Assembly: GCA_964629655.1 (NCBI GenBank)
Contig: CAZVQU010000002.1
Span: 162,814-226,813 of the forward strand
Source of the DNA: an uncultured Planctomycetia bacterium
Lineage (GTDB): Bacteria; Omnitrophota; Gorgyraeia; Duberdicusellales; 4484-171
Length of the DNA stretch: 64,000 nt
Reading direction: 5' to 3'
Part shown: piece after piece, positions 2,894 to 20,777 of the stretch
How the letters are laid out: each line of letters starts with the position of its first letter
Position numbering within the stretch: the first letter of the stretch is position 1
The notes under the pieces: model-generated
Seen by the model: the letters and a program-made list of their open reading frames with translations, nothing else
Told to the model about the DNA's origin: nothing
The model's database searches: none
Program-made: the position numbers and the translations under genes

Positions 2894-4567
2894 CTATATC
2901 TCTTCAGTCACCCTTAAAACTTCAGCTAGAGTAGTTATTCCCTTTAGGACTTTCTCCATTCCGTCATCATACAAAATTCGCATACCCAATTCTATCGCTT
3001 TTTTCTTGATCTCGTTGGCTGATGCCTTGGCTGCAACCATATTTCTGATTTCATCATTTACTACCAATAACGCATAAATTCCTATCCGGCCAAGAAATCC
3101 TGTATTTTTACATGCTCGACACCCCTTACCCTGATAAAATTTTGCATTCAAGCTCAAGTTTAAATCTTTACGCACTTCATCTGAAGGTATATGTTCTTCC
3201 TTACACTTAGGGCAAATTACCCTTACCAAGCGTTGAGCCAATATAGCGATAATTGACCCTGAAACCAAAAAAGGTTCAATGTCCATGTCTAATAGACGAG
3301 TTAAAGCGCTAGGAGCATCATTGGTGTGAAGAGTTGAAAAAACCAAATGTCCGGTTAACGAAGCTTGAATTGCTATTTCAGCAGTTTCTTTATCGCGAAT
3401 TTCACCGACCATTATAATATCCGGGTCTTGCCTTAAAATGTTTCTTAAACCATTGGCAAAGGTTAAACCAGCCTTAGGGTTGACCTGAGTCTGACGAATT
3501 AAGGGCAATTCATATTCTACCGGGTCTTCAATAGTAATTATATTCTTCTCCATGGAGTTTATAGTGGCTAGAGCTGAATAAAGGGTAGTGGTTTTCCCTG
3601 AACCAGTAGGACCGGTAACAAGAATTATCCCGTTGGGGTGCCTAATCATCTTACCAAAGATTTCCAAGACTTTATCAGAAAGCCCTAGCTCAGCTAATCC
3701 CAGAAGCACTGAAGTCTTATCAAGAATTCTAATAACGATATTCTCGCCATGAATAGTAGGAAAAGAAGAAATTCTTAAATCTAGGCTCTTATTCTCTACT
3801 TTAAGCTGCATTCTCCCGTCTTGAGGCTTACGGGTTTCAGCAATATCCATGTCTGAGACTACTTTAATTCGTGAAGCTAGAGCACTCTGCAGATGCTTAG
3901 GAAACTCCTGGATCTCATGCAAGATCCCATCAATGCGATAACGGACAAGAACCTTCTTTTGATCGGGCTCAATATGGATATCACTGGCTCCATCTTTAAC
4001 TGCCTGCATTATAATTAGATTAACTAACTTAATTACCGGAGCATCAGCAGCGATTTCAATTAACCCTTTAGGTTTCTTTTTTCCCTTCTCAGCTGCCTCT
4101 TTTGTCAACCCTTCAACCAGACTATCAACACTTCCTAAAGTACCATAATATTGATCGATAACCTTCTGTATCATATCAGGAGTTGAGAGAACTGGATCAA
4201 CTGCCTCAGCACCACTTTTCTTCCTGAGATCATCAATTGCGGTAATGTCTTGGGGATCTACCATGGCCACAGTTAAGGTATTCCCTATTTTAAACAAAGG
4301 TACAGCTTTATGTTTTTTAGCCACATTTTCAGGAACTAACTTTACCACTTCGGAATCAATTAAATAGTCATTTAAATCTATAAAAGGAATGCCTAAAGAA
4401 CCAGCCACAACCCTGACGATGTCAATCTCAGAAACAAATCCTAACTTCTCTAAGGCTTTCTCTGTAGGCATACCGGTTTTATGAACCTCTTCCTTAGCCT
4501 TATCAAGCTGCTCCTTAGTAATTATTCCTTTCTCAACTAATAACTCGATGTTTAGTTTTCTAGCCAT
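2894..4567 (-). CDS. pilB: Type IV pilus assembly ATPase PilB/GspE family with N-terminal T2SSE_N (MshEN-like) domain
   Basis: Walker A VTGPTGSGKTTTLYSAL, Asp box, His box, C-terminal tetra-Cys (CPKCK...CRAC) typical of GspE/PilB; 557 aa. Confidence 0.85.
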   Translation of the reverse strand: MARKLNIELLVEKGIITKEQLDKAKEEVHKTGMPTEKALEKLGFVSEIDIVRVVAGSLGIPFIDLNDYLIDSEVVKLVPENVAKKHKAVPLFKIGNTLTVAMVDPQDITAIDDLRKKSGAEAVDPVLSTPDMIQKVIDQYYGTLGSVDSLVEGLTKEAAEKGKKKPKGLIEIAADAPVIKLVNLIIMQAVKDGASDIHIEPDQKKVLVRYRIDGILHEIQEFPKHLQSALASRIKVVSDMDIAETRKPQDGRMQLKVENKSLDLRISSFPTIHGENIVIRILDKTSVLLGLAELGLSDKVLEIFGKMIRHPNGIILVTGPTGSGKTTTLYSALATINSMEKNIITIEDPVEYELPLIRQTQVNPKAGLTFANGLRNILRQDPDIIMVGEIRDKETAEIAIQASLTGHLVFSTLHTNDAPSALTRLLDMDIEPFLVSGSIIAILAQRLVRVICPKCKEEHIPSDEVRKDLNLSLNAKFYQGKGCRACKNTGFLGRIGIYALLVVNDEIRNMVAAKASANEIKKKAIELGMRILYDDGMEKVLKGITTLAEVLRVTEEI

Positions 4568-4637: not shown

Positions 4638-5759
4638 TTACGTGACTTCCGAGCTAGGTCTTGCCAAAAAGTACCCCTGTCCGGCATCAATACCGTAATC
4701 AACCAAGACCTTTAACTCCTCTTCTTTTTCAATCCCCTCGGCAATAGAAATTATGTTACTCTGCCTACAAAAACTAATTATCGCCTTAAGGAGGTTTTGC
4801 TTAACTGGATTGTCTTGGATGTCCTGAATAAGATGTCTGTCAATTTTTATAAAATCAGGCTTAATCTCAACTATTAGATCTAAAGCAGCATATCCGCTTC
4901 CAATATCATCAATAGAAGTTTTAAATCCCTTTTCCTTAAAAAATTTCAAAGTCTTTAGGAAACCAGCGAAATTATTAATTGCTGTACGTTCAGTCAGCTC
5001 TAAAACGATATTCTCAGCTTGAGCATAGCTTTCGTAAAATGAACTAAACTCTTTGAATTTTTCATCTTGAATAAGATAAGGGCTGACATTAAAAAAGGTT
5101 AAACTTTCCTTGGCCTTATCTCCTAACTTAGTTAGAGCCTTTTTATGACACATTATCTCTAAGTCAAAAAGCATACCTAGGTGGAAAGCAGTATCAAATA
5201 AAACTTCCGGGTTTGGGAAATAACTTCCCGGTAACGGCCGACTCAAGACTTCTCTACCTAAAAGACCTTGAGGGCTTAAGTAAAATATGGGTTGAAAATA
5301 AGGATTAACCAGCTCACCATTGATAATCCCCTTAACTTCATTGATTGCCTTAGCTTTATCTTTTACTCTCTCCTCAAATGGCTGATTACGCCGCAGGACT
5401 GCCTCTAGCCGTGCAAACAACTCTTCAATATCAAAAGGCTTAGTAACATAATCATCGGCACCAGTATGTAAGCCCTCAACCTTATCTTGAGAAGCATCTT
5501 TACCGGTAAGCATAACAATAGGAATTCGACTCGTTACCTTATCTGAGCGTAGCCGCCGGCAAACCTCGTAACCACTCACATCAGGCAACACCAGGTCTAG
5601 GAGAATAAGGTCGGGTGCATCTTTGACCCTTTCAAAAGCCTCTTCGGCAGTAGAAGCTACATTAACTATATAATCACGGGAATGAAGACGCATGCTAAAG
5701 ATATCTACAAAGTCACGATCGTCATCAACTAGAAGGATTCGTTTCTTTACTGTAACCAC
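4638..5759 (-). CDS. Response regulator with receiver + EAL (c-di-GMP phosphodiesterase) domains
   Basis: N-terminal REC (ILLVDDDRDF...DLILLDLVLPDVSG...MLTGK); C-terminal EAL-domain motifs ELTER, DDIGSGYAALD, IKIDRHLIQ, EGIE, QGYFLARP. Confidence 0.8.
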   Translation of the reverse strand: MVTVKKRILLVDDDRDFVDIFSMRLHSRDYIVNVASTAEEAFERVKDAPDLILLDLVLPDVSGYEVCRRLRSDKVTSRIPIVMLTGKDASQDKVEGLHTGADDYVTKPFDIEELFARLEAVLRRNQPFEERVKDKAKAINEVKGIINGELVNPYFQPIFYLSPQGLLGREVLSRPLPGSYFPNPEVLFDTAFHLGMLFDLEIMCHKKALTKLGDKAKESLTFFNVSPYLIQDEKFKEFSSFYESYAQAENIVLELTERTAINNFAGFLKTLKFFKEKGFKTSIDDIGSGYAALDLIVEIKPDFIKIDRHLIQDIQDNPVKQNLLKAIISFCRQSNIISIAEGIEKEEELKVLVDYGIDAGQGYFLARPSSEVT

Positions 5760-5769
5760 ATTAACCTCT

Positions 5770-6141
5770 TTATTGTTCTCCTAAAAGTTCCTTAATTTTT
5801 GAAAGTAATACCTGAGGCTCAAAAGGCTTTGTTATATAGGCATCTGCTCCTACCTGAGCACCCATCTCCTTATCTGAAGCTTGAGCCCGAGCAGTAAAGA
5901 GAATTATCGGAATGCTCTTATACTTCTCATCAAACTTAAGCATCCGGCAGACCTTATACCCGTCTAATTTGGGTAGCATTAAATCCAGCACTATCAAATC
6001 GGGGTTCTCAGCCCTTGCCTTATCTACAGCTTCCTGCCCATCGTAAGCAGATAAAACTTTATATCCACTAGCTTCAAGCCGCATCTTTAGCATCTCAACT
6101 AATTGAACCTCATCGTCAACCACTAAAATTCTTTTTGCCAT
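5770..6141 (-). CDS. CheY-like single-domain response regulator (paralog 4 of 4)
   Basis: 123 aa REC-only protein; DDE..D..K signature (VVDDE, LDLMLP, ILFTAR...KPF). Confidence 0.85.
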   Translation of the reverse strand: MAKRILVVDDEVQLVEMLKMRLEASGYKVLSAYDGQEAVDKARAENPDLIVLDLMLPKLDGYKVCRMLKFDEKYKSIPIILFTARAQASDKEMGAQVGADAYITKPFEPQVLLSKIKELLGEQ

Positions 6142-6165
6142 TATAGTATTTTCCTCCGGTACAGG

Positions 6166-6528
6166 CTAAACGTATCTTTTAATAAAATCTAATAACTCTT
6201 TTGTGTCAAATGGTTTGATGAAATAATCTGTTGAGCCTAAATCGTGTGTCTTAAACATAGTCTCTGTATCTCCTTTTGCCGTAAGCATCACTACCGGTGT
6301 ATGCTGAGTTTCTAAATCAGCTCTTAACCTGCGTAATACCTCAAATCCATCCATCTTTGGCATCATGATATCTAAAACAATCAGATCAGGCTTAAGGTCT
6401 TTGGCTTTCCCTAAGGCCTCTTCACCATCAGAGGCAGTACTGACTTCATAGCCTTCAGCTTCCAACCGCATCTTTAGCATCTCAACTAATTGGACTTCAT
6501 CGTCAACCACTAAAATTCTTCTTGCCAT
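6166..6528 (-). CDS. CheY-like single-domain response regulator (paralog 3 of 4)
   Basis: 120 aa REC-only protein; N-terminal 22 aa and ~70 nt nearly identical to paralog 4. Confidence 0.85.
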   Translation of the reverse strand: MARRILVVDDEVQLVEMLKMRLEAEGYEVSTASDGEEALGKAKDLKPDLIVLDIMMPKMDGFEVLRRLRADLETQHTPVVMLTAKGDTETMFKTHDLGSTDYFIKPFDTKELLDFIKRYV

Positions 6529-6545
6529 AACTACTCCTCACTTAA

Positions 6546-6917
6546 TTATTTCTTCAAAACCTTATCGACCATTAGCAATAACTTATCAGCCTCAAAAGGT
6601 TTAGCAATAAAAAGATTATCACCTATTTCTTCACTACCTTGGTTCTCGGTCATCCCATCAGCTAAGCAAGTTAAAAAGATAATTGGGATTTTAGAAAATT
6701 GATCGTCTTCCTTTAAAGCCGCACCTACCTCATTGCCAGCCATCTTTGGCATTACGATATCCAAGATGATCAAATCAGGCTTAAGGTCTTTAGCTTTCTG
6801 TAACCCCTCTTCACCATCAAAGGCAGTAATGACTTCGTAACCGTTGGCTTGAAGGCGCATCTTTAGCATAGTTACTAATTGAGGTTCGTCGTCAACTACT
6901 AAAACTCTTTTGGCCAT
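6546..6917 (-). CDS. CheY-like single-domain response regulator (paralog 2 of 4)
   Basis: 123 aa REC-only protein. Confidence 0.85.
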   Translation of the reverse strand: MAKRVLVVDDEPQLVTMLKMRLQANGYEVITAFDGEEGLQKAKDLKPDLIILDIVMPKMAGNEVGAALKEDDQFSKIPIIFLTCLADGMTENQGSEEIGDNLFIAKPFEADKLLLMVDKVLKK

Positions 6918-6942
6918 TTCACTCTCCTTATGATTTATTATA

Positions 6943-7314
6943 CTATACCTTTAAGCACTCGCTAATCTTATTTAGAAGGTCATCAGCGTCAAAAGGCTTC
7001 ACAACTAGATCATCAGCCCCGGCTTCCCTACACTTCTCGACTAAATCTTTATTGCCAGAAGCAGTAACCATGATTATTGGAATATCCTTTGCTTGGGCAT
7101 CGCTTTTAAGCTGACGGCAAAGTGACCAACCGTCAAGTTTGGGCATTACTATATCAAGAAGTATGAGGTCAGGTTTGCCCTCCTGAACCTTCTCTAATCC
7201 TTCCTCACCATCAGAAGCAGAAATCATCTCATAGCCGCTAGCCTGAAGTCGCATCCTCATCATGGTAACGAGTTCTTCCTCATCTTCAATAAGTAATATT
7301 TTCTTCTTACCCAT
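6943..7314 (-). CDS. CheY-like single-domain response regulator (paralog 1 of 4)
   Basis: 123 aa REC-only protein. Confidence 0.85.
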   Translation of the reverse strand: MGKKKILLIEDEEELVTMMRMRLQASGYEMISASDGEEGLEKVQEGKPDLILLDIVMPKLDGWSLCRQLKSDAQAKDIPIIMVTASGNKDLVEKCREAGADDLVVKPFDADDLLNKISECLKV

Positions 7315-7328
7315 GACTCCTCCTAACG

Positions 7329-10061
7329 TTATGCCTTGCCGGATAAACCAAGATTATCCAATAACCCTTGGCTGCTATTAGCCTGGTCAGGATATGTGGT
7401 TAAACCAGCTTCTAATTTGATGCTTCCGGATAAATTCTTACCCCGTAAATAATCTTTTACTATTTCGATTAACCTGTTTTCAATCCTTTGAGCATTGTCG
7501 TTATCACAAGCAGTCAGCAAAACAGCAACTCCCTGAGAAATTTTAAACGCTTTATCATTTTCTCGACGAAAAGTACTCTTTAAAGCCTTCTCAAGATCAC
7601 TGAGTGCTGTCTGCAGCTGATTATCGGTAAGTTTTTTCTTTATTTTATCAGGAAAAGTTAGGCAAATCTTGATAAGGGAAACCTTTGATTTTTCCATCAC
7701 CGCTTCGTTCACCGCTCTGTCAAGATGCTTCTTAAGAAACAGTCCGGAAACATACTTGGGCAGGGTGAAGATGAATTTTGATCCCTTACCAAGCTTACTT
7801 TTAACCTTTATGGTGCCGCCATGCTCTTCAACTAAGTTTTTGGTAATTGCTAAACCTAGCCCGGTACCTTTTGCGCCCGGCCCGGCTACCCGCCCGAACT
7901 GCTGAAACTTAGTAAATACTTTAGGTAAATCATTCTTGGATATCCCCTGACCGGTATCAGAAATTGAGATTTCTACATCGTTTTTGCTATCTATTAACTC
8001 AATTTTTATTCTGCCTTTCTCAGAAGTATATTTTATGGCATTAGAAACAAGATTATCCAAAACCTGAGTTATCTTGTCAGGATCAACAGAAATGTTTACC
8101 GGGATATCCGGTACAGAACAGTCTAAGTCCTGTTCTTTCTTTTTGCTCTCTATCTTCCACTCCTCACATATAGTTCTTACCATCTGGCGAATATCTACCA
8201 GAGATTTCTCCAGCTTTAACTTCCCGGCTTCAATCTTAGAAATATCCAAAAGATTATTTATAATCCTTGCCAAACGATCAATGTTTTCGCTGCCCATTTT
8301 AAGGATATTTTTCTGTTTCTGGTTCACTTTGCCCGGTATCTCGTCTGCAATCAAAGACACCCCTTCCTTGATTATAGACAATGGGGTACGTAACTCATGG
8401 GAAACGGTACTAATAAACTCATCTTTAAGCTTCTCAACTTTTTTACGTTCAGTAATATCCTTAGCTATATGCACTGCGCCGACAATCTTTCCTTCTTCAT
8501 CAAAAATTGGTGACACAGTAATTAAAAGAGGTATTCCGATGTGTGGGTCGTCAACTTCTTCACTGTGAGCCTTTCCGGTTTTCTCCATAGCTTGGAAAGG
8601 ACATCCCGGCCAAGAAAAATTTTGTCCATGAACTACTTCATGACATTTTTTGCCTATAATCTCCTCCGGCTTAGCCTTCATTGCTGCAGCAAAAGCTTTG
8701 TTAACCTTAACAATAGTAGAGTCTCTATCTTGGATAAAGATTAAGTCGGTTATGGAATTAAATGTTCTTTGCCATTCTTCGGCAGCTTTCTTTATTGAAC
8801 TGTCAGCTTTTTTACGTTCGGTAATATCCCGAACCGTTGCCTGGACAAACTCTTTATCTCCAATCTGCATTTTAGTTAACAAAACTGTAGCTGGAAATTC
8901 ATCTCCACTTAATCGCTTATGTTGCCATTCAAAGAAGTTTGAACCGGTTTTTAACGCCTCTCCTATCCTCACCTTAGCTTTTACCTCTGATTTTTGTCCG
9001 TCGGGCTGATACTCTGGAGATAATTTCCCCGGCCCTTTTGATATAAACTCGGCTTCATCTTTAGCACCGAACACCCTAATTGTGGCCGGGTTTCCAGAAA
9101 TAAACTTCCAATCTGGAGGAGCTAAGACCATAATCGCATCCATGGAAGACTCATAAAGTGTTCTGAATTTTTCCTCGCTTTCGGTTAAAGCTACTTCGAC
9201 CTGCTTACGTTCAGCAATTTCTCTGTTCAAAGCAACTATAGAGATAGTGCTATTTTTTAAATTTTCTGTCATCTTATCAAAAGCCCTTGAAAGTTGACCG
9301 ATTTCATCTTTTGAGCCAGTGCCTACTTTATAATCTAAATTGCCCCCTCCGATTATCTCCATCCCCTTACGTAAAGCCTTCATCGGATTAGCAATTGTTC
9401 TAGAAACAAACATACTTACGCCCAACACTGACATCAAAAATAAAAGAACGGTATAGAAAACCCTGTATTTGCTGTGATGGACTGAATTCTGCACATTTGT
9501 TACTGCCTCATTTAATGTCAGATCAGAAGCTATGATTGCTTTATTGCGCTTTAGACTCATTGTGTCAACATAAGCCTTAAGGCCACCTGCATAAATATCC
9601 TTGTTCTCCCAGTAAGCATCACTCTCCAAAATCTTAGCTGCTTCTTCTCCTTCTCCGGCATCAACGAGCTTAATCGACATATGTTCCATTTCCACCAGAG
9701 CTATGTTTGCTTTGTCGACGCTTGCAAAAAATTTTTTGCCGGACTGATCTATTCTTGCAATAGCTTGTTTTATTGTCTTGTCTAACTTGGGCTCAATATC
9801 GTAATAGCGTTGTTTCCATTTTTCATCTCCGGTAAATGCATAATTTCGCGCAGATTGAGTTAAAACTTCGTCATGATATCGGATTGATTTAGCCAATCCA
9901 TCCATAAACGTTGTCTCGGCTATTGCATAAATATCTTCTGGTATATCTCTATTTAACGGTTTAGCAATCTCATTTAGTTGACTTATGGTTACATAACCCA
10001 TAACCGCAACTAAAAAAGTAACCAACGAAAATCCTAGCAATAATTTCTGTCCTATTCTCAC
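7329..10061 (-). CDS. Sensor histidine kinase: periplasmic sensor domain, TM, HAMP, two PAS domains, HisKA, HATPase_c, plus ~170-aa uncharacterized C-terminal domain
   Basis: TM helices flanking a ~170-aa extracytoplasmic region; HAMP (IANPMKALRKGMEIIGGGNLDY); PAS with Cys-rich CHEVVHGQNFSWPGCPF; H-box HELRTPLSII; G-boxes DTGQGI and GTGLGLAITK; 910 aa. Confidence 0.85.
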   Translation of the reverse strand: MRIGQKLLLGFSLVTFLVAVMGYVTISQLNEIAKPLNRDIPEDIYAIAETTFMDGLAKSIRYHDEVLTQSARNYAFTGDEKWKQRYYDIEPKLDKTIKQAIARIDQSGKKFFASVDKANIALVEMEHMSIKLVDAGEGEEAAKILESDAYWENKDIYAGGLKAYVDTMSLKRNKAIIASDLTLNEAVTNVQNSVHHSKYRVFYTVLLFLMSVLGVSMFVSRTIANPMKALRKGMEIIGGGNLDYKVGTGSKDEIGQLSRAFDKMTENLKNSTISIVALNREIAERKQVEVALTESEEKFRTLYESSMDAIMVLAPPDWKFISGNPATIRVFGAKDEAEFISKGPGKLSPEYQPDGQKSEVKAKVRIGEALKTGSNFFEWQHKRLSGDEFPATVLLTKMQIGDKEFVQATVRDITERKKADSSIKKAAEEWQRTFNSITDLIFIQDRDSTIVKVNKAFAAAMKAKPEEIIGKKCHEVVHGQNFSWPGCPFQAMEKTGKAHSEEVDDPHIGIPLLITVSPIFDEEGKIVGAVHIAKDITERKKVEKLKDEFISTVSHELRTPLSIIKEGVSLIADEIPGKVNQKQKNILKMGSENIDRLARIINNLLDISKIEAGKLKLEKSLVDIRQMVRTICEEWKIESKKKEQDLDCSVPDIPVNISVDPDKITQVLDNLVSNAIKYTSEKGRIKIELIDSKNDVEISISDTGQGISKNDLPKVFTKFQQFGRVAGPGAKGTGLGLAITKNLVEEHGGTIKVKSKLGKGSKFIFTLPKYVSGLFLKKHLDRAVNEAVMEKSKVSLIKICLTFPDKIKKKLTDNQLQTALSDLEKALKSTFRRENDKAFKISQGVAVLLTACDNDNAQRIENRLIEIVKDYLRGKNLSGSIKLEAGLTTYPDQANSSQGLLDNLGLSGKA

Positions 10062-13934: not shown

Positions 13935-15128
13935 TTAATTCTTAAGGGCTGAGTTAGAAGACTTGACTCTCTGGACACTTAAAGCCTCTTGTATCTGCTG
14001 ATCACCGACAAAACCCAGTTCTTTAAGGACCTCACCTAATACTATTCCCCTCTTCCAATGCAGATTTAAAGCCTCATCTAATTGTTCATAAGAGATTGCC
14101 TGGTTCTGAAGCAATATCTGACCCAAGGGTTGGTAGGGATAGGCTGGGGTCTTCTTATTAACTTGGGGTACCTTGTTAGCAAAAGAAACCGAATCCCTTC
14201 GCTCAGCCATAAATATACTCTCGGGAATTGTTTTTAAAAATCTCTTTATCTCGGCAATCCGTTCATTGACCTCGATAATACTCTTGACCTTAGAAGAATC
14301 ATCTTTGTTGAACACAGCAATAGACACACTCATCAACGGTGACTTCTTTATCTTCCGGGCCCGATCCCTAGCCATAACAAAGCCCTTGGTACGGTCACTA
14401 GCTGAATAGTGGAAAGGGGTAATGTTGTCAAAGAAATTAATAAAATTCTTACAGACCCTCTCATATTTATCAGGAGTAGTAATAAAAGCAAAGTCATCAC
14501 CGCCGATATGACTGATAAAATCGTCACCATTACCGAAATCTTTCAAGGTTGTAAATAATAAATAAGCGGTCTGCAAAATTACTCTATCCCCCTTGCGATA
14601 TCCATAAACGTCATTAAAAGACTTAAAATTATCGATATCTACGTAAGCAAAAGAAAAAGGCATACCAGAGCTTAACCTCTCCTTAAGCGTATCTTCAAGA
14701 ATCTTTCCTCCAGGAAGGCCGGTTAAAGGGCTAGCATAAATACTATGTTTTGCCCTTCTTACTGACATCTCAATTCTTATCCGTAAATCCAGAGGATCTG
14801 GCGGTTTAATAAGATAGTCATCTACCCCCTGTTTAAGATTTAGAAGTTGAGCTCGCAAGTGACGCTTATTAATTAAGGTTATTACCGGAATGAAAGCAGT
14901 GGTGAAGTCTTTTTTTAGATTTCGACAGATATCAAGCTGTTGTTTGCTGGCTGTTTGAACATCAACCACGATAACATCAGGAGAGACTTTCTTGATTTCT
15001 TCAATGTCAGAGTCTGGTGAAGAATCTTTCAAGAAAACTTCATACCCCCAGCCATCAAAGCAAAAACTAAGTACATCCTTAAGCTTGCTATCTGAAGACA
15101 CGATCAAGATCTTCTTAATTTTATCCAT
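13935..15128 (-). CDS. Three-domain c-di-GMP signalling protein: atypical receiver + GGDEF-type cyclase domain (GGDDF variant) + C-terminal T2SSE_N/MshEN-like domain
   Basis: N-terminal REC-like fold with SSDS replacing the acidic DD pair; GGDEF domain with YGYRKGD and HIGGDDFAFI; C-terminal LGEVLKELGFVGDQQIQEALSVQ matches the MshEN/T2SSE_N c-di-GMP-binding repeat. Confidence 0.7.
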   Translation of the reverse strand: MDKIKKILIVSSDSKLKDVLSFCFDGWGYEVFLKDSSPDSDIEEIKKVSPDVIVVDVQTASKQQLDICRNLKKDFTTAFIPVITLINKRHLRAQLLNLKQGVDDYLIKPPDPLDLRIRIEMSVRRAKHSIYASPLTGLPGGKILEDTLKERLSSGMPFSFAYVDIDNFKSFNDVYGYRKGDRVILQTAYLLFTTLKDFGNGDDFISHIGGDDFAFITTPDKYERVCKNFINFFDNITPFHYSASDRTKGFVMARDRARKIKKSPLMSVSIAVFNKDDSSKVKSIIEVNERIAEIKRFLKTIPESIFMAERRDSVSFANKVPQVNKKTPAYPYQPLGQILLQNQAISYEQLDEALNLHWKRGIVLGEVLKELGFVGDQQIQEALSVQRVKSSNSALKN

Positions 15129-15178: not shown

Positions 15179-18100
15179 CTAATCCTTCTTTTTGGCTTGT
15201 TCTTTTTCCTCGATTATTCTCTTAGCTATTTCTTTAGGAACTTGGGTGTATTTTTTAAAGTGCATAGAGCAATTAGCCCTTCCGCTGCTTAAAGAACGCA
15301 TATTAGTAGCATAACCGAACATCTCCGATAGTGGGGCCTCAGCCATGATTGTCTTTTGAGTCCCTTTAGTCTCCATGCCTAAAATCTTTCCTCGCTTAGA
15401 ACAGACATAACCGACAAGGTTGCTGGTATACTCATCAGGAGCATTTATCTCTAGCTCCATACAGGGCTCAAGCAATACTGGGTCACACTTCATAAAAGCG
15501 CTCTTAAAACAACTCCTGGCGGTTAGCTTAAAAGCTAACTCTGAAGAATCAACATCATGATAAGAACCATCAACTAATTTTACCTTTACGTCTACTACCG
15601 GATAGCCGGCACAAGGGCCCTGCTTCATGGCTTCAATAATTCCTTTTTCAACAGCCGGAATATAATTTCTTGGTATAACCCCACCGGTAATGGCATCTTC
15701 GAACTCAAAGCCTTCTCCGGGGGCATTCGGTGAGAGCTCAATCACCACATGGCCATATTGGCCCCGGCCTCCGGTCTGTTTTATATGTTTATACTCTTCA
15801 GTTATACTATTGAGTATTGCTTCTTTATAAGCTACCTTAGGCTGCCCAACAGTAGCGCTAACTTTGAATTCTTCTTTTAATCTATCTACAATTATCTCTA
15901 AATGCAATTCGCCCATCCCTGAGAGAATGGTCTCTGAAGTCTCCTCATCTATATGAGCCTTAAAGGTAGGGTCTTCCTCGGATAGCTTAGCTAAGCCTTT
16001 ACTTAATTTATCCTGTTCACTTCTGCTATCAGGTCTAATGCTGATTGAAATTACCGGTTCGGAGAATTCAATTGACTCTAAGATAATCGGGCTCTCCGGA
16101 TTGGTAAGGGTATCTCCGGTTAAAGTGCTACTTAAACCAACTACTGCTGCGATATCTCCGGTAAAAACAGCATCTAAGTTCTCACGTTGATTAGCATGCA
16201 TCTGGACAATTCTTCCAACCCTTTCCTTCTTCTCCTTAGTAGCATTGTATATATAAGTTCCGGCTTTTAGATATCCGGAGTAGACCCGGATATAGACTAA
16301 TTTACCAATATGTTGATCAGCCTGAATCTTAAAAGCTAAGGCTGAGAAAGGTTCCTGGTCTGATGGCTTACGCTGGAGCTTATTCTCTGAATCAGAAGCA
16401 TCATGTCCTTGTATTGGTGGAATATCTAAGGGTGAAGGAAGATACAGAGTTACCGCGTCAAGAAGACTCTGTACTCCTTTATTTTTAAAAGCTGAACCGC
16501 AAAGCACCGGAACAATCTTGCGGGCTATCGCCCCTTTGCGAATAGCTTTTTTTAATTCCTCTTCGGTAATTGACTTCTCATCTTTTAAGTACTTTTCAGT
16601 AAGAAGACTATCCTCAGCTGCCGCTTTCTCTAGAAGGGTATGCCGATACTTATCACAGGTATCTTTATATTCTTGAGGAATCTCTTCAACTTTGAAATCA
16701 TTTCCTAAAGTATCATCTTCGTAGACATAGGCTTTCATAGTAATAAGATCAATTACTCCTTTAAAATTCTCTTCAGCCCCAATCGGAATCTGTAAAGCTA
16801 AAGCATTAGCACCTAACTCTTTCTCAATACTCCCTAAAACCGCAAAAAAATCTGCACCCATGCGGTCCATCTTATTAACAAAAACAATTTTAGGTACCTC
16901 ATATTTATCAGATTGACGCCAGACCGTCTCTGATTGGGGCTCAACCCCTCCAACAGCACAGAAAACTGCTACTGCTCCATCTAAGACCCGTAAACTCCTC
17001 TCAACTTCAGCAGTAAAATCTACATGCCCGGGAGTGTCAATAATGCTAACCCGATAATCTCCCCAAATACAAGTAGTGGCAGCTGAAGTAATAGTAATCC
17101 CTCTCTCCTGTTCCTGTTTCATCCAGTCCATCTGGGCAGCACCATCATGAACCTCTCCGATCTTATGAGAACGGCCGGTATAAAAGAGAATCCTTTCGGT
17201 TAAGGTGGTCTTACCGGCATCAATATGGGCCATAATCCCGATATTTCGTAATTTAGCTAGGTCATTCTTTCTAACTAAAGGGGGCTCTTCTTTCCCTGCC
17301 TTTGGCGGGACTTCTCCTTCACTACGCTCAGGACTTTGCTCTGGTCGCTTTTTGGGCTTTTCCTTAACTTTCTCTTTAGACTCTTCTGCCTTAACCTCTT
17401 CTTTAGGTTTTTCTTCTTTCTTCTCTTCAACTACCTCTTGAGGCTTGGTAACCTCAGCTGCCAGTACTTCTTCTTTAACCTCGGAAGGAAGCACTTCTGC
17501 GGTCTTCTTCTCTTCCTCTTCTTTTGCCTTCTCTTGCTTAATGGAAACTTCAACTATTGGCTCTATGCCTTGTTCTTTAAGCTGATGAGCCAAACGCATC
17601 CGCTCTTTGTCTTTGGCCTCTATCTCTTTACTCCTCAGCTCTACTTCTTTCTTACTAATTTCTAAATGCTGCTTTAACTCCTCTTTTTCTTCAACTAAAC
17701 TATTGTACTCCTCTTTAGAAACCCAGCCGCTCTCCTTTTCTCTCTTCCTTAACTTTGCTACTTCTTCCTTCTGAGCCCGTAAATCACCTACTACCTTAAC
17801 CATCCTCTCGTCAGCAGATTTGATCTTTTTCTCTAAAGCTCCTCTTTCATCCTTTAAGCTCTTGATATTTCCCTCTAAAAGCTTTACTTCTCTGTGGGCA
17901 TCCGAGACATCCCTTTTTAGATTCACATTCTTAGTAAATTCCTGCTCTAATTGTTTTTCCTTATCGAGAAGACTCTTCCTAAGCTCTCGCTCCGGTCCTT
18001 TTTCTTTCTTTAAGAGCTTCTGCTGATAAGTGAGCCACTTTTTACTTTGCTTATCTTTCTCTCTTAGCTCAGCTTCTTTCTTCTTTAAGTTTTCTAGCTC

Positions 18101-18343
18101 CTTTTTCATAACAGAGCTGCGGACCTTAATTTTTTCTAAAGCGGCAAGCTCAGCCTTATAGTCAAAAACTTTTTTCCTTAAGGATTGACTCTTATCGGTT
18201 AGGTCTACGATTCTCTTCTCGATAGCCCGGACTTGAACTTTTTCTTTAGTCTTTTTCCTGGCATCTTTGGCATCTTCGCTGTTTAAGGAGTAGACAACAA
18301 GGACTATAGCTGAAGCAATAAGTATCGAGGCAAAAATAATCAT
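15179..18343 (-). CDS. Elongation factor G homolog fused to a ~365-aa N-terminal extension (TM helix + K/E-rich coiled coil)
   Basis: Residues ~366-1054 are a full EF-G ([33 protein letters not shown]-prime, domains II-V). Residues 1-365 are [20 protein letters not shown] (TM) followed by heptad-rich KE repeats. No in-frame ATG/GTG/TTG start precedes the EF-G core. Confidence 0.75.
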
Positions 18344-20060: not shown

Positions 20061-20777
20061 CTAACAGCTAGGACGAGTAAGATGTTTTTCTACGAATTCG
20101 GCAATTTTCTCTTGTTTCTCAGGAGTTATGTTGTGAAATTCTAAACCCATCCCTGGATAATCCTCAGACTGAATCTCTTCATCAGCTAGCCAAACCACCT
20201 TAACATCAGCTTCTATGGTTCCTGTCTGAGGTTGAAGATCCATCCGGGTAACTAATAACTCTCCTATCGAGAATATCTTGTTGCTAACTATAAATACTCC
20301 TTCGGCGCTTAAATTTACTATTTTACCCTCATGGAATGGTTCATCCTTAAGAAGTTTTTGTCTGTATTCAATAGCAGTATCAAAAGGTATCCGCTCGAAC
20401 CTCCTTCTTAAAGGATCCTGAGCTAAACGTTCCATCTCTCGCTCATGCTTAATCGCTTCTAAGGCTTGCTCTTCGCTAATATGAAATTTAAAGATTCTAT
20501 CCATGCCAACAATTGAGAATAGCCTCATTACATGCGAAGGAACATTATATAACTCAATTTTTCCCTTATGGTTTAAGACATTCTTATATATAACTGAAAT
20601 CAAAGACACTCCTACGTAATCGACTAAGTTTACGCTTTCAAAATTACAAATTATATCTTTAGCCTGGTGGTTGAGAACCCATCCTACAGTCTCAACAAAA
20701 TCTGAGGCATCAATACCAATGCTACCTTCTAACTCTAAGATTGCTACCCCTTCTTTTATTTTAATCTTAATTCTCAT
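20061..20777 (-). CDS. STAS (anti-sigma-factor antagonist SpoIIAA-like) domain fused to a C-terminal PilZ (c-di-GMP-binding) domain
   Basis: N-terminal STAS fold (EGVAILELEGSIGIDASDF...YVGVSLISVI); C-terminal PilZ with RRRFERIP (RxxxR) and VNLSAEG (D/NxSxxG); 238 aa; 4-nt overlap with uppP. Confidence 0.7.
   Translation of the reverse strand: MRIKIKIKEGVAILELEGSIGIDASDFVETVGWVLNHQAKDIICNFESVNLVDYVGVSLISVIYKNVLNHKGKIELYNVPSHVMRLFSIVGMDRIFKFHISEEQALEAIKHEREMERLAQDPLRRRFERIPFDTAIEYRQKLLKDEPFHEGKIVNLSAEGVFIVSNKIFSIGELLVTRMDLQPQTGTIEADVKVVWLADEEIQSEDYPGMGLEFHNITPEKQEKIAEFVEKHLTRPSC

What the first reader, a model, noticed from the sequence alone, without database searches (positions are those of the whole stretch)
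13935..15128. Pseudo-receiver + GGDDF cyclase domain + MshEN-type c-di-GMP-binding domain in a single polypeptide
The receiver has lost the N-terminal acidic pair (SSDS instead of DD). The GGDEF signature reads GGDDF and there is no RxxD I-site. The C-terminus carries an LGxxLxxxGxxxxxxxxxALxxQ MshEN/T2SSE_N motif, the c-di-GMP receptor module normally found on pilus ATPases. The PilB in this window carries the same kind of N-domain. This architecture, a possible self-sensing cyclase or c-di-GMP effector, is uncommon.
Basis: partly seen in the sequence, partly recalled or inferred. Interest (0 to 1): 0.55.

Follow-up and report, generated by a model that had tools for sequence, protein, structure and literature searches.

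The report
Cyclase fused to c-di-GMP sensor
This Omnitrophota gene joins a receiver-like domain that probably cannot be phosphorylated, an unusual 'GGDDF' type of cyclic-di-GMP synthase domain and a small module predicted to bind cyclic-di-GMP, so the enzyme may sense its own product; the combination is real and conserved but has never been tested.

Summary
The 397-aa ORF (13935-15128, minus strand) has three parts:
- a receiver domain with Ser-Ser in place of the acidic pair;
- a complete GGDEF-fold domain that reads GGDDF and has no RxxD I-site;
- a C-terminal 53-residue MshEN_N four-helix bundle.

The bundle scores above the NCBIfam cut-off. It aligns without gaps to V. cholerae MshE residues 9-60. 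Its model superposes on c-di-GMP-bound MshE and PilF at 0.7-0.8 Å.

- GGDDF is not decay. GH[IV][GA]GDDF is the signature of a large, multi-phylum, uncharacterised REC-GGDEF subfamily. That subfamily keeps all GTP- and metal-binding residues and almost never has an I-site.
- The fusion to MshEN is common in Omnitrophota: ~397-aa forms carry MshEN_N only, and ~480-aa forms carry full MshEN. Every taxonomically named MshEN-bearing locus in a scan of GTDB species representatives was Omnitrophota.
- The PilB in this window has lost both essential glycines of the binding motif, so it is not the same kind of domain in terms of ligand binding.

Most likely this is a phosphorylation-independent diguanylate cyclase that senses its own product through MshEN_N. 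The direction of the feedback is unknown. It is a new variant of a known kind, of moderate interest.

The parts
13935..15128 (-). Whole ORF, 397 aa: REC (atypical) - GGDDF cyclase-type domain - linker - MshEN_N. The stop codon lies 2 nt before the start of the downstream MscS gene.
   Evidence: ORF list; Pfam and NCBIfam; 120 listed full-length orthologs at 60-91% identity, nearly all of the named ones from Omnitrophota; gap to the MscS gene.
14754..15116 (-). Receiver (REC) domain, residues 5-125. S11-S12 replace the Mg2+-binding acidic pair. D56, T84 and K108 are kept. The alpha4-beta5-alpha5 face and an F22-C-x-D-G-W-G-Y-E-V31 patch are nearly invariant.
   Evidence: Pfam 31.7 bits; alignment with canonical receivers; secondary structure beta1 = 5-10 and alpha1 from 14; conservation.
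14193..14735 (-). GGDEF-fold domain of the 'GGDDF' subfamily, residues 132-312. It has an LTGLPGG wide turn and D164/K169/N172/D181/H207/K295/K299 at the substrate- and metal-binding positions. There is an extra FHY..DR...RDR hairpin and a terminal ..RR strand.
   Evidence: Pfam GGDEF on residues 134-218 only; alignment to PleD; AF2 model and Foldseek hits to WspR, PleD, DgcR and isolated GGDEF domains; invariance.
14490..14504 (-). GGDDF signature, residues 209-213. It is preceded by H207 (the PleD R366 position) and by N200-G-D-D203 where the RxxD I-site would be.
   Evidence: Sequence; PleD alignment; GGDD kept in 121/121 orthologs; GH[IV][GA]GDDF in 146/150 representatives; RxxD at the I-site position in only 4/148.
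14130..14192 (-). Variable, low-confidence linker, residues 313-333.
   Evidence: pLDDT 54-63 in the model; length and sequence vary in alignments A1 and A3.
13971..14129 (-). MshEN_N four-helix bundle, residues 334-386. It consists of two 24-residue motifs (PLGQILLQNQAISYEQLDEALNLH and VLGEVLKELGFVGDQQIQEALSVQ) joined by the 5-residue spacer WKRGI. This is the predicted c-di-GMP-binding site. No MshEN_C subdomain follows.
   Evidence: NF053729 at 49.6 bits against a cut-off of 38; gap-free alignment to MshE 9-60 and to the PilF repeats; AF2 pLDDT 94; Foldseek best hits 5HTL and 8PFA/8PDK (c-di-GMP-bound), TMq 0.90-0.92, rmsd 0.6-0.8 Å; contact residues invariant.
4400..4558 (-). Context only: MshEN_N-like N-terminus of PilB (residues 4-56), with a degenerate binding motif. 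If its Gly14 and Gly43 are aligned with motif position 10, Ile and Glu fall at the MshE G11 and G40 positions.
   Evidence: NF053729 at 35 bits, below the cut-off of 38; sequence; G11 and G40 substitutions give poor, if any, binding in MshE (PMC5013675).
20061..20777 (-). Context only: STAS-PilZ gene carrying RxxxR and NxSxxG motifs. A gene of this type recurs near orthologs of the target.
   Evidence: Pfam; sequence; seen near orthologs in L001, L003 and L006.

Best explanation
The gene encodes a diguanylate cyclase of an uncharacterised, widespread 'REC-GGDDF' subfamily. In Omnitrophota this subfamily has acquired a C-terminal MshEN-type c-di-GMP receptor module.

Shown here:
- The domain architecture.
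- Family-wide invariance of the GTP-, metal- and phosphate-binding residues together with GGDDF.
- Absence of the RxxD I-site.
- Loss of the receiver's acidic pair.
- An MshEN_N bundle that keeps every residue whose mutation lowers or abolishes c-di-GMP binding in MshE.

Inferred:
- The receiver no longer takes a phosphoryl group and serves as a constitutive dimerisation scaffold, through its conserved alpha4-beta5-alpha5 face.
- The GGDDF domains of the dimer condense two GTP into c-di-GMP.
- The MshEN_N bundle, tethered by a flexible ~20-residue linker, binds c-di-GMP at sub-micromolar affinity and changes cyclase output.

This would make c-di-GMP, rather than phosphorylation, the regulatory input. 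My preferred direction is product inhibition that substitutes for the missing I-site. Positive feedback, or c-di-GMP-dependent recruitment to a partner, cannot be excluded.
For: Architecture.

Active site:
- The D164, K169, N172, D181, K295 and K299 equivalents of PleD D327, K332, N335, D344, K442 and R446 are kept in 121/121 orthologs, as are GGDD and H207.
- Most of them are also invariant across 24 MshEN-bearing relatives at 30-65% identity.
- GH[IV][GA]GDDF occurs in 146/150 cluster representatives.
- This pattern (active site kept, I-site absent in 144/148) is the opposite of known degenerate GGDEF receptors, which keep the I-site and lose the active site (my own knowledge of PelD-type receptors).
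- A GGDDF domain (GSU1937) is catalytically active in vivo (PMC8835794).

MshEN_N:
- It scores above the curated cut-off.
- It is in exact register with MshE.
- The equivalents of G11 and G40 (substitutions give poor, if any, binding) and of L10, L25, L29, L39, L54 and L58 (>10-fold effects) (PMC5013675) are all conserved.
- The missing Arg residues are not disqualifying. PilF GSPII-B binds at 6 nM with Lys and Leu at those positions, and its K167L mutant binds at 2 nM (PMC11731258). Position 363 is V/I/L/A/M in the orthologs.
- The fold superposes on ligand-bound structures at 0.6-0.8 Å.

Receiver:
- S11-S12 align with the DD pair of canonical receivers.
- In the wider MshEN-bearing clade the phospho-acceptor Asp itself is often replaced by S, A, G or E.
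- Non-MshEN members such as P0151, P0159 and P0163 keep DD.
Against: - No biochemical data exist for any member of the REC-GGDDF subfamily.
- The fourth motif residue is Asp, not the Glu of the accepted active consensus, and other GGDDF proteins (for example PA3258) show no cyclase activity (PMC8835794).
- Two subfamily members carry a GGDDF domain and a canonical GGEEF domain in one polypeptide (P0180, P0199). This hints that the two types may not be redundant.
- Motif 1 departs from every published consensus at position 10 (Q/N/K, not G/A/S) and position 24 (His, not Gln). The strict relaxed regex of Wang et al. is not matched.
- D56, T84 and K108 are conserved, so some form of phosphorylation or an Asp-dependent switch is not excluded.
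- The relative placement of MshEN_N and the cyclase domain is not predicted with confidence (linker pLDDT 54-63), so the feedback mechanism is pure inference.
Confidence: 0.45

Rival explanations
1. It is a c-di-GMP effector or adaptor, not an enzyme. The GGDDF domain is catalytically dead, or merely binds GTP. MshEN_N reads cellular c-di-GMP made by other cyclases, and the conserved REC surface passes the signal to a partner protein, for example the recurrent STAS-PilZ protein or the pilus machinery.
For: - The Glu-to-Asp change lies outside the accepted [G/A/S]G[D/E]E[F/Y] active motif, and some GGDDF proteins are inactive (PMC8835794).
- An invariant, unusual REC surface patch FCxDGWGYEV suggests a protein partner.
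- A STAS-PilZ gene lies within 5 kb in four of the five 397-aa-type contexts examined (the window, L001, L003, L006). It is immediately downstream in L006.
- MshEN-fold domains can dock PilZ proteins (X. citri PilB-PilZ, PMC8389850).
- GGDDF and GGEEF domains co-occur in single proteins.
Against: Every substrate-, metal- and phosphate-binding residue is invariant across a subfamily diverged to about 30% identity, which is hard to explain without nucleotide chemistry. There is no I-site for c-di-GMP binding on the GGDDF domain itself. Gene neighbourhood is otherwise variable.
Confidence: 0.25
2. It is a cyclase with a different product or substrate preference. The remodelled active site (GGDDF, His for PleD R366, LPGN/LPGG for the NRR wide turn) makes another cyclic or linear nucleotide, while MshEN_N senses c-di-GMP. 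The protein would then couple two nucleotide signals.
For: - Three co-varying changes around the active site are fixed across the subfamily.
- The only GGDDF enzyme shown to be active makes cGAMP as well as c-di-GMP (PMC8835794).
- A few MshEN-clade members have Asn at the guanine-reading Asp position ('GN' in P0129, P0134, P0277, P0312).
Against: The target and all 121 orthologs keep both guanine-specifying residues, N172 and D181 (the PleD N335 and D344 equivalents). They lack the Ser that marks Hypr cGAMP synthases. MshEN recognition is guanine-specific through backbone amides (PMC5013675), which fits a c-di-GMP product best.
Confidence: 0.1
3. It is an ordinary phosphorylation-activated REC-GGDEF response regulator, and the C-terminal helical bundle is a non-binding structural remnant of MshEN.
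For: D56, T84 and K108 are conserved, and D13 sits next to the lost pair. Motif 1 deviates from the published consensus at positions 1, 10 and 24. MshEN-like domains that look similar can fail to bind, for example PilF GSPII-A (PMC12002112).
Against: Both Mg2+-binding acidic residues are Ser in nearly all orthologs. The ligand-contact positions of MshEN_N are the most conserved columns of the C-terminus, including both glycines. The bundle has been retained as a separate module in two length classes of the family.
Confidence: 0.1

Closest known systems
REC-GGDEF diguanylate cyclases PleD (C. crescentus), WspR (P. aeruginosa) and DgcR (Leptospira)
   Same: Same order of receiver and GGDEF-fold domain. 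They are the best structural matches to the full model and the best sequence matches in the PDB. The metal- and guanine-binding residues are shared.
   Different: - Those enzymes have GG[DE]EF, an Arg before the motif, an NRR wide turn and an RxxD I-site for product inhibition. They are switched on by phosphorylation of a receiver with an intact acidic pocket.
- The target has GGDDF, His, LPGG and no I-site, Ser-Ser in the pocket, and an added MshEN_N domain.
MshEN / GSPII c-di-GMP receptor domains of the pilus and secretion ATPases MshE (V. cholerae) and PilF (T. thermophilus)
   Same: A 53-residue bipartite motif in identical register, with both glycines and all hydrophobic contact positions kept and the same four-helix bundle. 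Like PilF GSPII-B, it lacks Arg at the motif starts.
   Different: - It sits at the C-terminus of a cyclase, not the N-terminus of an ATPase.
- It lacks the MshEN_C (T2SSE_N1) subdomain.
- It has clade-specific Pro at motif 1 position 1 and His-Trp at the motif 1/spacer junction.
- Binding is untested.
MshEN_N-only and non-ATPase MshEN fusions catalogued by Wang et al. 2016
   Same: The examples are REC-MshEN_N-UNK Bd2402, (MshEN_N)2-REC-ACyc MXAN_7396, MshEN-HD-GYP-REC MXAN_2809 and the glycosyltransferase NfrB. All follow the same principle: the small bundle acts as a portable c-di-GMP input fused to signalling or enzymatic outputs, including a nucleotide cyclase and a c-di-GMP phosphodiesterase.
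   Different: No GGDEF-MshEN fusion is listed there, or in any paper I could find. Here the fused enzyme would make the very ligand that the module binds.
GSU1937 of Geobacter sulfurreducens (Hypr GGDEF with a GGDDF motif)
   Same: It carries GGDDF and no other catalytic domain, and it is experimentally active (PMC8835794).
   Different: GSU1937 has a transmembrane N-terminus and the Hypr Ser at the base-reading position. The target keeps Asp and belongs to a different subfamily linked to REC.

Membership tests
CheY-like phosphorylatable receiver (Response_reg, PF00072) | (beta/alpha)5 receiver fold and a profile match | tested here: met
   Pfam 31.7 bits against a cut-off of 30.2. The AF2 secondary structure is typical for a receiver. 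Foldseek hits WspR, PleD and DgcR.
CheY-like phosphorylatable receiver (Response_reg, PF00072) | Phospho-acceptor Asp plus the conserved Thr/Ser and Lys | tested here: met
   D56 is kept in 121/121 orthologs, T84 in 108/121 and K108 in 121/121. D56 and K108 fall in invariant Asp and Lys columns of the alignment with canonical receivers, and T84 aligns with the Thr of most of them.
CheY-like phosphorylatable receiver (Response_reg, PF00072) | Acidic pair after beta1 that binds the catalytic Mg2+ | tested here: not met
   S11-S12 align with the DD/ED of seven canonical receivers. Ser is found at position 11 in 120/121 orthologs and at position 12 in 109/121. D13 falls one position later, at the alpha1 N-cap.
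GGDEF diguanylate cyclase (PF00990) | GGDEF (palm-like) fold and a profile match | tested here: met
   Pfam 50 bits, covering only profile positions 5-89 of 161. The whole domain superposes on isolated GGDEF domains with TMt 0.65-0.78.
GGDEF diguanylate cyclase (PF00990) | Active-site signature [G/A/S]G[D/E]E[F/Y] | tested here: not met
   The motif reads GGDDF in the target and in 121/121 orthologs. One GGDDF domain is known to be active, so failing this test lowers the claim but does not exclude activity.
GGDEF diguanylate cyclase (PF00990) | Metal-, guanine- and phosphate-binding residues (PleD D327, K332, N335, D344, K442, R446) | tested here: met
   D164, K169, N172, D181, K295 and K299 are invariant in the orthologs. 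The mapping of K295 and K299 onto PleD K442 and R446 is my own reading of motif spacing, not a tool alignment.
GGDEF diguanylate cyclase (PF00990) | RxxD inhibitory site five residues before the motif (typical, not obligatory) | tested here: not met
   The position reads NGDD. RxxD is found there in only 4 of 148 subfamily representatives.
GGDEF diguanylate cyclase (PF00990) | Synthesis of c-di-GMP from GTP | not testable with these tools
   This needs an enzyme assay.
MshEN_N c-di-GMP-binding domain | Two 24-residue motifs separated by five residues, scoring above the curated threshold | tested here: met
   NF053729 matches 53/53 positions at 49.6 bits against a cut-off of 38. The alignment to MshE 9-60 has no gaps.
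MshEN_N c-di-GMP-binding domain | Gly at position 3 of both motifs and hydrophobic residues at the L10/L25/L29/L39/L54/L58 positions | tested here: met
   G336 and G365 are kept in 121/121 orthologs. L335, L350, L354, L364, I379 (I/L/V) and L383 are conserved. The requirement comes from PMC5013675.
MshEN_N c-di-GMP-binding domain | Published consensus at position 1 (R/K/L), position 10 (G) and position 24 (Q) | tested here: inconclusive
   - Motif 1 has P, Q and H at these positions. Motif 2 has V, G and Q.
- Pro is allowed at position 1 in the relaxed pattern of Wang et al..
- Hydrophobic residues at position 1 raise affinity in PilF.
- Pro and His are clade-wide (74/78 and 72/78), which points to a conserved variant rather than decay.
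MshEN_N c-di-GMP-binding domain | Four-helix bundle fold | tested here: met
   The AF2 model has pLDDT 94 and four helices. [quoted passage not shown]
MshEN_N c-di-GMP-binding domain | Binding of c-di-GMP | not testable with these tools
   This needs ITC or DRaCALA.
Full MshEN domain (Pfam PF05157, MshEN_N plus MshEN_C) | Presence of the C-terminal alpha/beta subdomain (T2SSE_N1) | tested here: not met
   PF05157 does not hit the target, and the protein ends 11 residues after the motif. The ~480-aa relatives do have the subdomain.
REC-'GGDDF' subfamily (uncharacterised; defined here) | GH[IV][GA]GDDF, an (N/S)PLTxLPG(N/G) wide turn, an FHY..DR hairpin, a terminal ..RR strand and an N-terminal REC | tested here: met
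   The target matches these over residues 5-312 to representatives of 305-320 aa at 30-38% identity with E = 1e-46 to 1e-57. The motifs were tallied.

The most novel reading that the evidence does not exclude
The Omnitrophota REC-GGDDF-MshEN(_N) proteins may be the first diguanylate cyclases in which a dedicated MshEN receptor module has replaced both the I-site and receiver phosphorylation as the control input. This would give an autoregulatory, self-sensing c-di-GMP synthase. The wider REC-GGDDF subfamily, which spans many phyla, would be a distinct catalytic class of GGDEF enzymes with a co-evolved Asp/His/LPGN active site.
Probability: 0.35. Interest if true: 0.6.

Novelty: new variant of a known kind. 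Interest (0 to 1): 0.45.

Why it matters
Product feedback in diguanylate cyclases is understood almost entirely through the RxxD I-site, and MshEN is known as an input for ATPases and glycosyltransferases. A cyclase that carries its own MshEN module would be a second, modular solution to product sensing. It would also offer a compact natural part for engineering c-di-GMP circuits.

Independently, the analysis shows that 'GGDDF' is the conserved signature of a large multi-phylum REC-linked subfamily that still keeps its active-site residues. Genome censuses that score any non-GG[DE]EF motif as 'degenerate/inactive' may therefore misclassify these proteins.

The finding also adds to the sparse picture of signalling in the uncultivated phylum Omnitrophota.

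Tried and rejected
- Pfam MshEN (PF05157) gave no hit on the target. I first read this as evidence against the finding. It turned out that the model matches only the part after the 53-residue motif: PilB 58-145, and 392-479 in the 480-aa relatives.
- The strict relaxed regex of Wang et al. matched nothing in the six-frame translation of the window, not even PilB, so it is too strict to decide the question.
- The first attempt to scan GTDB with the MshEN_N-only alignment failed for lack of a conserved 7-10 column stretch. The scan was redone with full-length alignment A3. That scan retrieves the whole GGDDF subfamily, so the count of MshEN-bearing loci (6-7 of 80) is a sample, not a census.
- NCBIfam has no dedicated model for the REC-GGDDF subfamily.
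- Literature searches for GGDDF and for MshEN with GGDEF or REC-GGDEF found no description of this subfamily or fusion.
- The promoter and terminator scan around the gene did not differ from shuffled sequence.
- I considered a Cas10-like GGDD palm (cyclic oligoadenylate synthase) from memory. I dropped it because all sequence and structure hits are to GGDEF cyclases and the guanine-reading Asn/Asp pair is kept.
- Gene-neighbourhood conservation (EF-G-like, MscS, M48 peptidase, Pol IV) holds only among close relatives, so I did not use it for function.
Full report
**What is there.** The finding's coordinates are exactly one ORF, 13935..15128 on the minus strand, 397 aa. The ORF lies in a 39-40% GC window in which almost every gene is on the minus strand. 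Pfam finds a receiver at residues 7-119 (31.7 bits, barely above the cut-off) and a GGDEF match limited to the first half of the model (residues 134-218). NCBIfam adds a full-length match of residues 334-386 to NF053729, 'cyclic di-GMP-binding domain, MshE-related' (E = 2.6e-13, 49.6 bits against a cut-off of 38).

**Receiver.**
- In the AF2 model beta1 is residues 5-10 and alpha1 starts at residue 14.
- In an alignment with the four stand-alone receivers and the REC-EAL protein of the same window, plus two subfamily members, S11-S12 fall on the DD/ED pair. D56 and K108 fall in invariant Asp and Lys columns, and T84 aligns with the Thr of most of those receivers.
- Among 121 orthologs, Ser is at position 11 in 120 and at position 12 in 109. 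D56 and K108 are kept in all 121.
- The Mg2+-binding pair is thus systematically absent, while the rest of the switch is retained.
- The alpha4-beta5-alpha5 face and an unusual F22-C-x-D-G-W-G-Y-E-V31 patch are invariant.

**Cyclase-type domain.**
- The alignment to PleD maps D164 to D327, K169 to K332, N172 to N335, D181 to D344, H207 to R366 and GGDDF to GGEEF. N200-G-D-D203 lies where RxxD would be.
- By motif spacing I map K295 and K299 to PleD K442 and R446. This is my own reading, not a tool result.
- The full model (pLDDT 78, pTM 0.72) matches WspR, PleD and DgcR. Its GGDEF part covers isolated GGDEF domains at TMt up to 0.78. The fold is therefore complete, even though the second half has diverged beyond the reach of the Pfam profile.

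**The key reinterpretation: GGDDF is a family signature, not decay.**
- An exhaustive phmmer search of 1.84 billion cluster representatives found 742 clusters at E <= 1e-30.
- Of the best 150, 146 carry GH[IV][GA]GDDF, and most of them also have an (N/S)PLTxLPG(N/G) wide turn.
- Most of these are ~310-aa REC-GGDDF proteins that match the target over residues 5-312. Several that I read keep a canonical DD pocket.
- RxxD at the I-site position occurs in only 4 of 148.
They came from Omnitrophota, Chloroflexota, Elusimicrobiota, Firmicutes, Acidobacteriota, Planctomycetota, Gemmatimonadota, Nitrospirota, Actinomycetota (Salinispora, Micromonospora, Actinoplanes), Desulfovibrio and others.
- No NCBIfam model is dedicated to this subfamily, and I found no paper on it.

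**The C-terminal module.**
- phmmer against PDB sequences aligns residues 334-385 without gaps to MshE 9-60 (5HTL), and to all three PilF repeats (best overall E = 2.8e-11).
- The mapping is P334 = R9, G336 = G11, L350 = L25, L354 = L29, H357 = Q32, WKRGI = the spacer, V363 = R38, G365 = G40, I379 = L54, L383 = L58 and Q386 = Q61.
- Wang et al. showed that G11 and G40 substitutions give poor, if any, binding. Single changes to the conserved hydrophobic residues cost more than 10-fold. Earlier work they cite found changes to R9, D12 or Q32 cost no more than about five-fold (PMC5013675).
- In 121 orthologs both glycines, L354, L383, P334 and W358 are invariant. H357 is kept in 120/121, and position 363 is always V, I, L, A or M.
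- PilF GSPII-B binds c-di-GMP at 6 nM with Lys and Leu instead of the two arginines, and its K167L mutant binds at 2 nM. The authors propose that hydrophobic replacements predict very high affinity (PMC11731258).
- A separate AF2 model of the 57-residue segment (pLDDT 94) has as its eleven best PDB matches only c-di-GMP-bound MshE and PilF GSPII-B structures (TMq 0.85-0.92, rmsd 0.6-1.1 Å).
- The deviations that remain unexplained are Q/N/K at motif 1 position 10 and His at position 24. They are why the strict published regex fails.
- Pro at position 1 and His at position 24 are clade-wide (74/78 and 72/78 in non-orthologous relatives). I read them as a conserved variant.

**Distribution of the fusion.**
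- Besides the ~397-aa type (107 of the sequences collected have fewer than 40 residues after the motif), there is a ~480-aa type (72 sequences) in which the 53-residue motif is followed by a Pfam MshEN hit, that is, a complete MshEN domain.
- Where sources name an organism, these proteins are almost always from Omnitrophota.
- In the GTDB sample, the loci whose match or encoded ORF includes the MshEN_N motif are L008-L011, L024, L026 and L034. Six are labelled Omnitrophota (including Ca. Gygaella obscura) and one is labelled 'uncultured bacterium'. None of the ~70 REC-GGDDF loci from other phyla has the motif.
- Wang et al. list MshEN_N fused to REC, an adenylate cyclase, HD-GYP, CheA, CheX, kinases and glycosyltransferases, but not to GGDEF. 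No later paper I could search describes such a fusion.
- In the MshEN-bearing clade the receiver is frequently degenerate. Several members have S, A, G or E at the phospho-acceptor position.

**PilB comparison.**
- The window's PilB (2894..4567) has T2SSE and Pfam MshEN domains.
- Its N-terminal motif scores 35 bits, below the NF053729 cut-off.
- It reads KLNIELLVEKGII... and ...PTEKALEKLGF. If its Gly14 and Gly43 are aligned with motif position 10, Ile and Glu fall where MshE has G11 and G40 (my own reading). G11 and G40 substitutions give poor, if any, binding in MshE.
- The pilus ATPase is therefore predicted not to bind c-di-GMP directly, as in Xanthomonas and Pseudomonas PilB (PMC8389850). 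The cyclase-type protein carries the better motif.

**Context.**
- The target's stop codon lies 2 nt before the start of an MscS gene.
- The order EF-G-like, target, MscS, M48 peptidase, Pol IV recurs only in a close relative. It does not recur in more distant orthologs.
- The one recurrent neighbour is a ~240-aa STAS-PilZ gene. It lies 5 kb upstream in the window (20061..20777; the protein has RxxxR and NxSxxG motifs) and 5 kb upstream in L001. It lies 2 kb upstream in L003 and is directly downstream in L006. L005 instead has three PilZ genes 4-5 kb upstream.
- This association is suggestive, not conclusive.

**Mechanism.** The pattern of active-site residues fixed, I-site absent and acidic pocket lost, with an intact high-affinity-type c-di-GMP module added, fits one reading best. 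That reading is a constitutively dimerising cyclase whose output is tuned by its own product through MshEN_N (confidence about 0.45).
- My separate estimates are: architecture about 0.97, c-di-GMP binding about 0.75, catalytic activity about 0.6, and inhibitory direction about 0.35.
- The main rival is a non-enzymatic c-di-GMP adaptor (0.25).
- A different nucleotide product (0.1) and a conventional phospho-activated regulator with a vestigial bundle (0.1) are less likely.
- None of these can be settled without biochemistry.

**Verdict.** The protein is a member of a conserved, uncharacterised family: a new variant of known kinds (REC-GGDEF cyclases and MshEN receptors), not a new category. 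Interest is moderate, at 0.45. The hypothesis is clear and cheap to test. There is a useful side result about the GGDDF subfamily. The domains and the logic of product feedback are familiar.

Noticed in passing
window 2894-4567 (PilB), N-terminus 4400-4558: The type IV pilus ATPase PilB has an MshEN fold, but its c-di-GMP motif is degenerate. Both Leu-Gly dipeptides are missing, and NF053729 gives 35 bits against a cut-off of 38. As in Xanthomonas and Pseudomonas PilB, it probably needs an adaptor rather than direct c-di-GMP binding.
   Followed up: partly
window 20061-20777; L001 1319-2038; L003 4253-4975; L006 9224-9946: A ~240-aa STAS-PilZ gene with canonical RxxxR and NxSxxG motifs recurs within 0-5 kb of REC-GGDDF-MshEN_N orthologs whose neighbourhoods are otherwise different. 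In L006 it is directly downstream. It is a possible functional partner.
   Followed up: partly
window 15179-18343; L001 3857-6973: The EF-G-like GTPase just upstream is 1054 aa. It has an N-terminal hydrophobic segment ([20 protein letters not shown]) and a K/E-rich, probably coiled-coil, extension of roughly 350 aa before the GTPase domain. A similarly long EF-G homolog (1038 aa) sits in the same position in L001. It may be a membrane-anchored EF-G paralog.
   Followed up: no
window 4638-10061: A signalling cluster lies upstream of pilB/pilC. It consists of a HAMP-PAS histidine kinase with a C-terminal GGDEF-like domain that has no GGDEF motif (22.9 bits, just below the Pfam cut-off of 23.8), four tandem stand-alone receivers that are 120-123 aa long and all have intact acidic pockets, and a REC-EAL protein with an ExLxR motif.
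   Followed up: partly
P0180, P0199 (relatives): Two members of the REC-GGDDF subfamily also carry a canonical GGEEF domain in the same polypeptide. P0180 also has a canonical DxLTxLxNR wide turn. This hints that the two domain types may not be functionally redundant.
   Followed up: no
alignment A3: P0139, P0161, P0182, P0277, P0284, P0316, P0334, P0346, P0133: In the ~480-aa REC-GGDDF-MshEN clade the phospho-acceptor Asp itself is replaced by S, A, G or E in many members. The shift towards pseudo-receivers therefore goes together with the presence of MshEN.
   Followed up: partly
alignment A3: P0129, P0134, P0277, P0312: A few MshEN-bearing relatives have Asn instead of Asp at the guanine-reading position (the PleD D344 equivalent, 'GN' for 'GD'). 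This could alter substrate preference.
   Followed up: no
window 1-64000: Almost all ORFs of at least 120 aa are on the minus strand, and GC skew is negative throughout. This is consistent with a single replichore arm with strong gene-strand bias.
   Followed up: no
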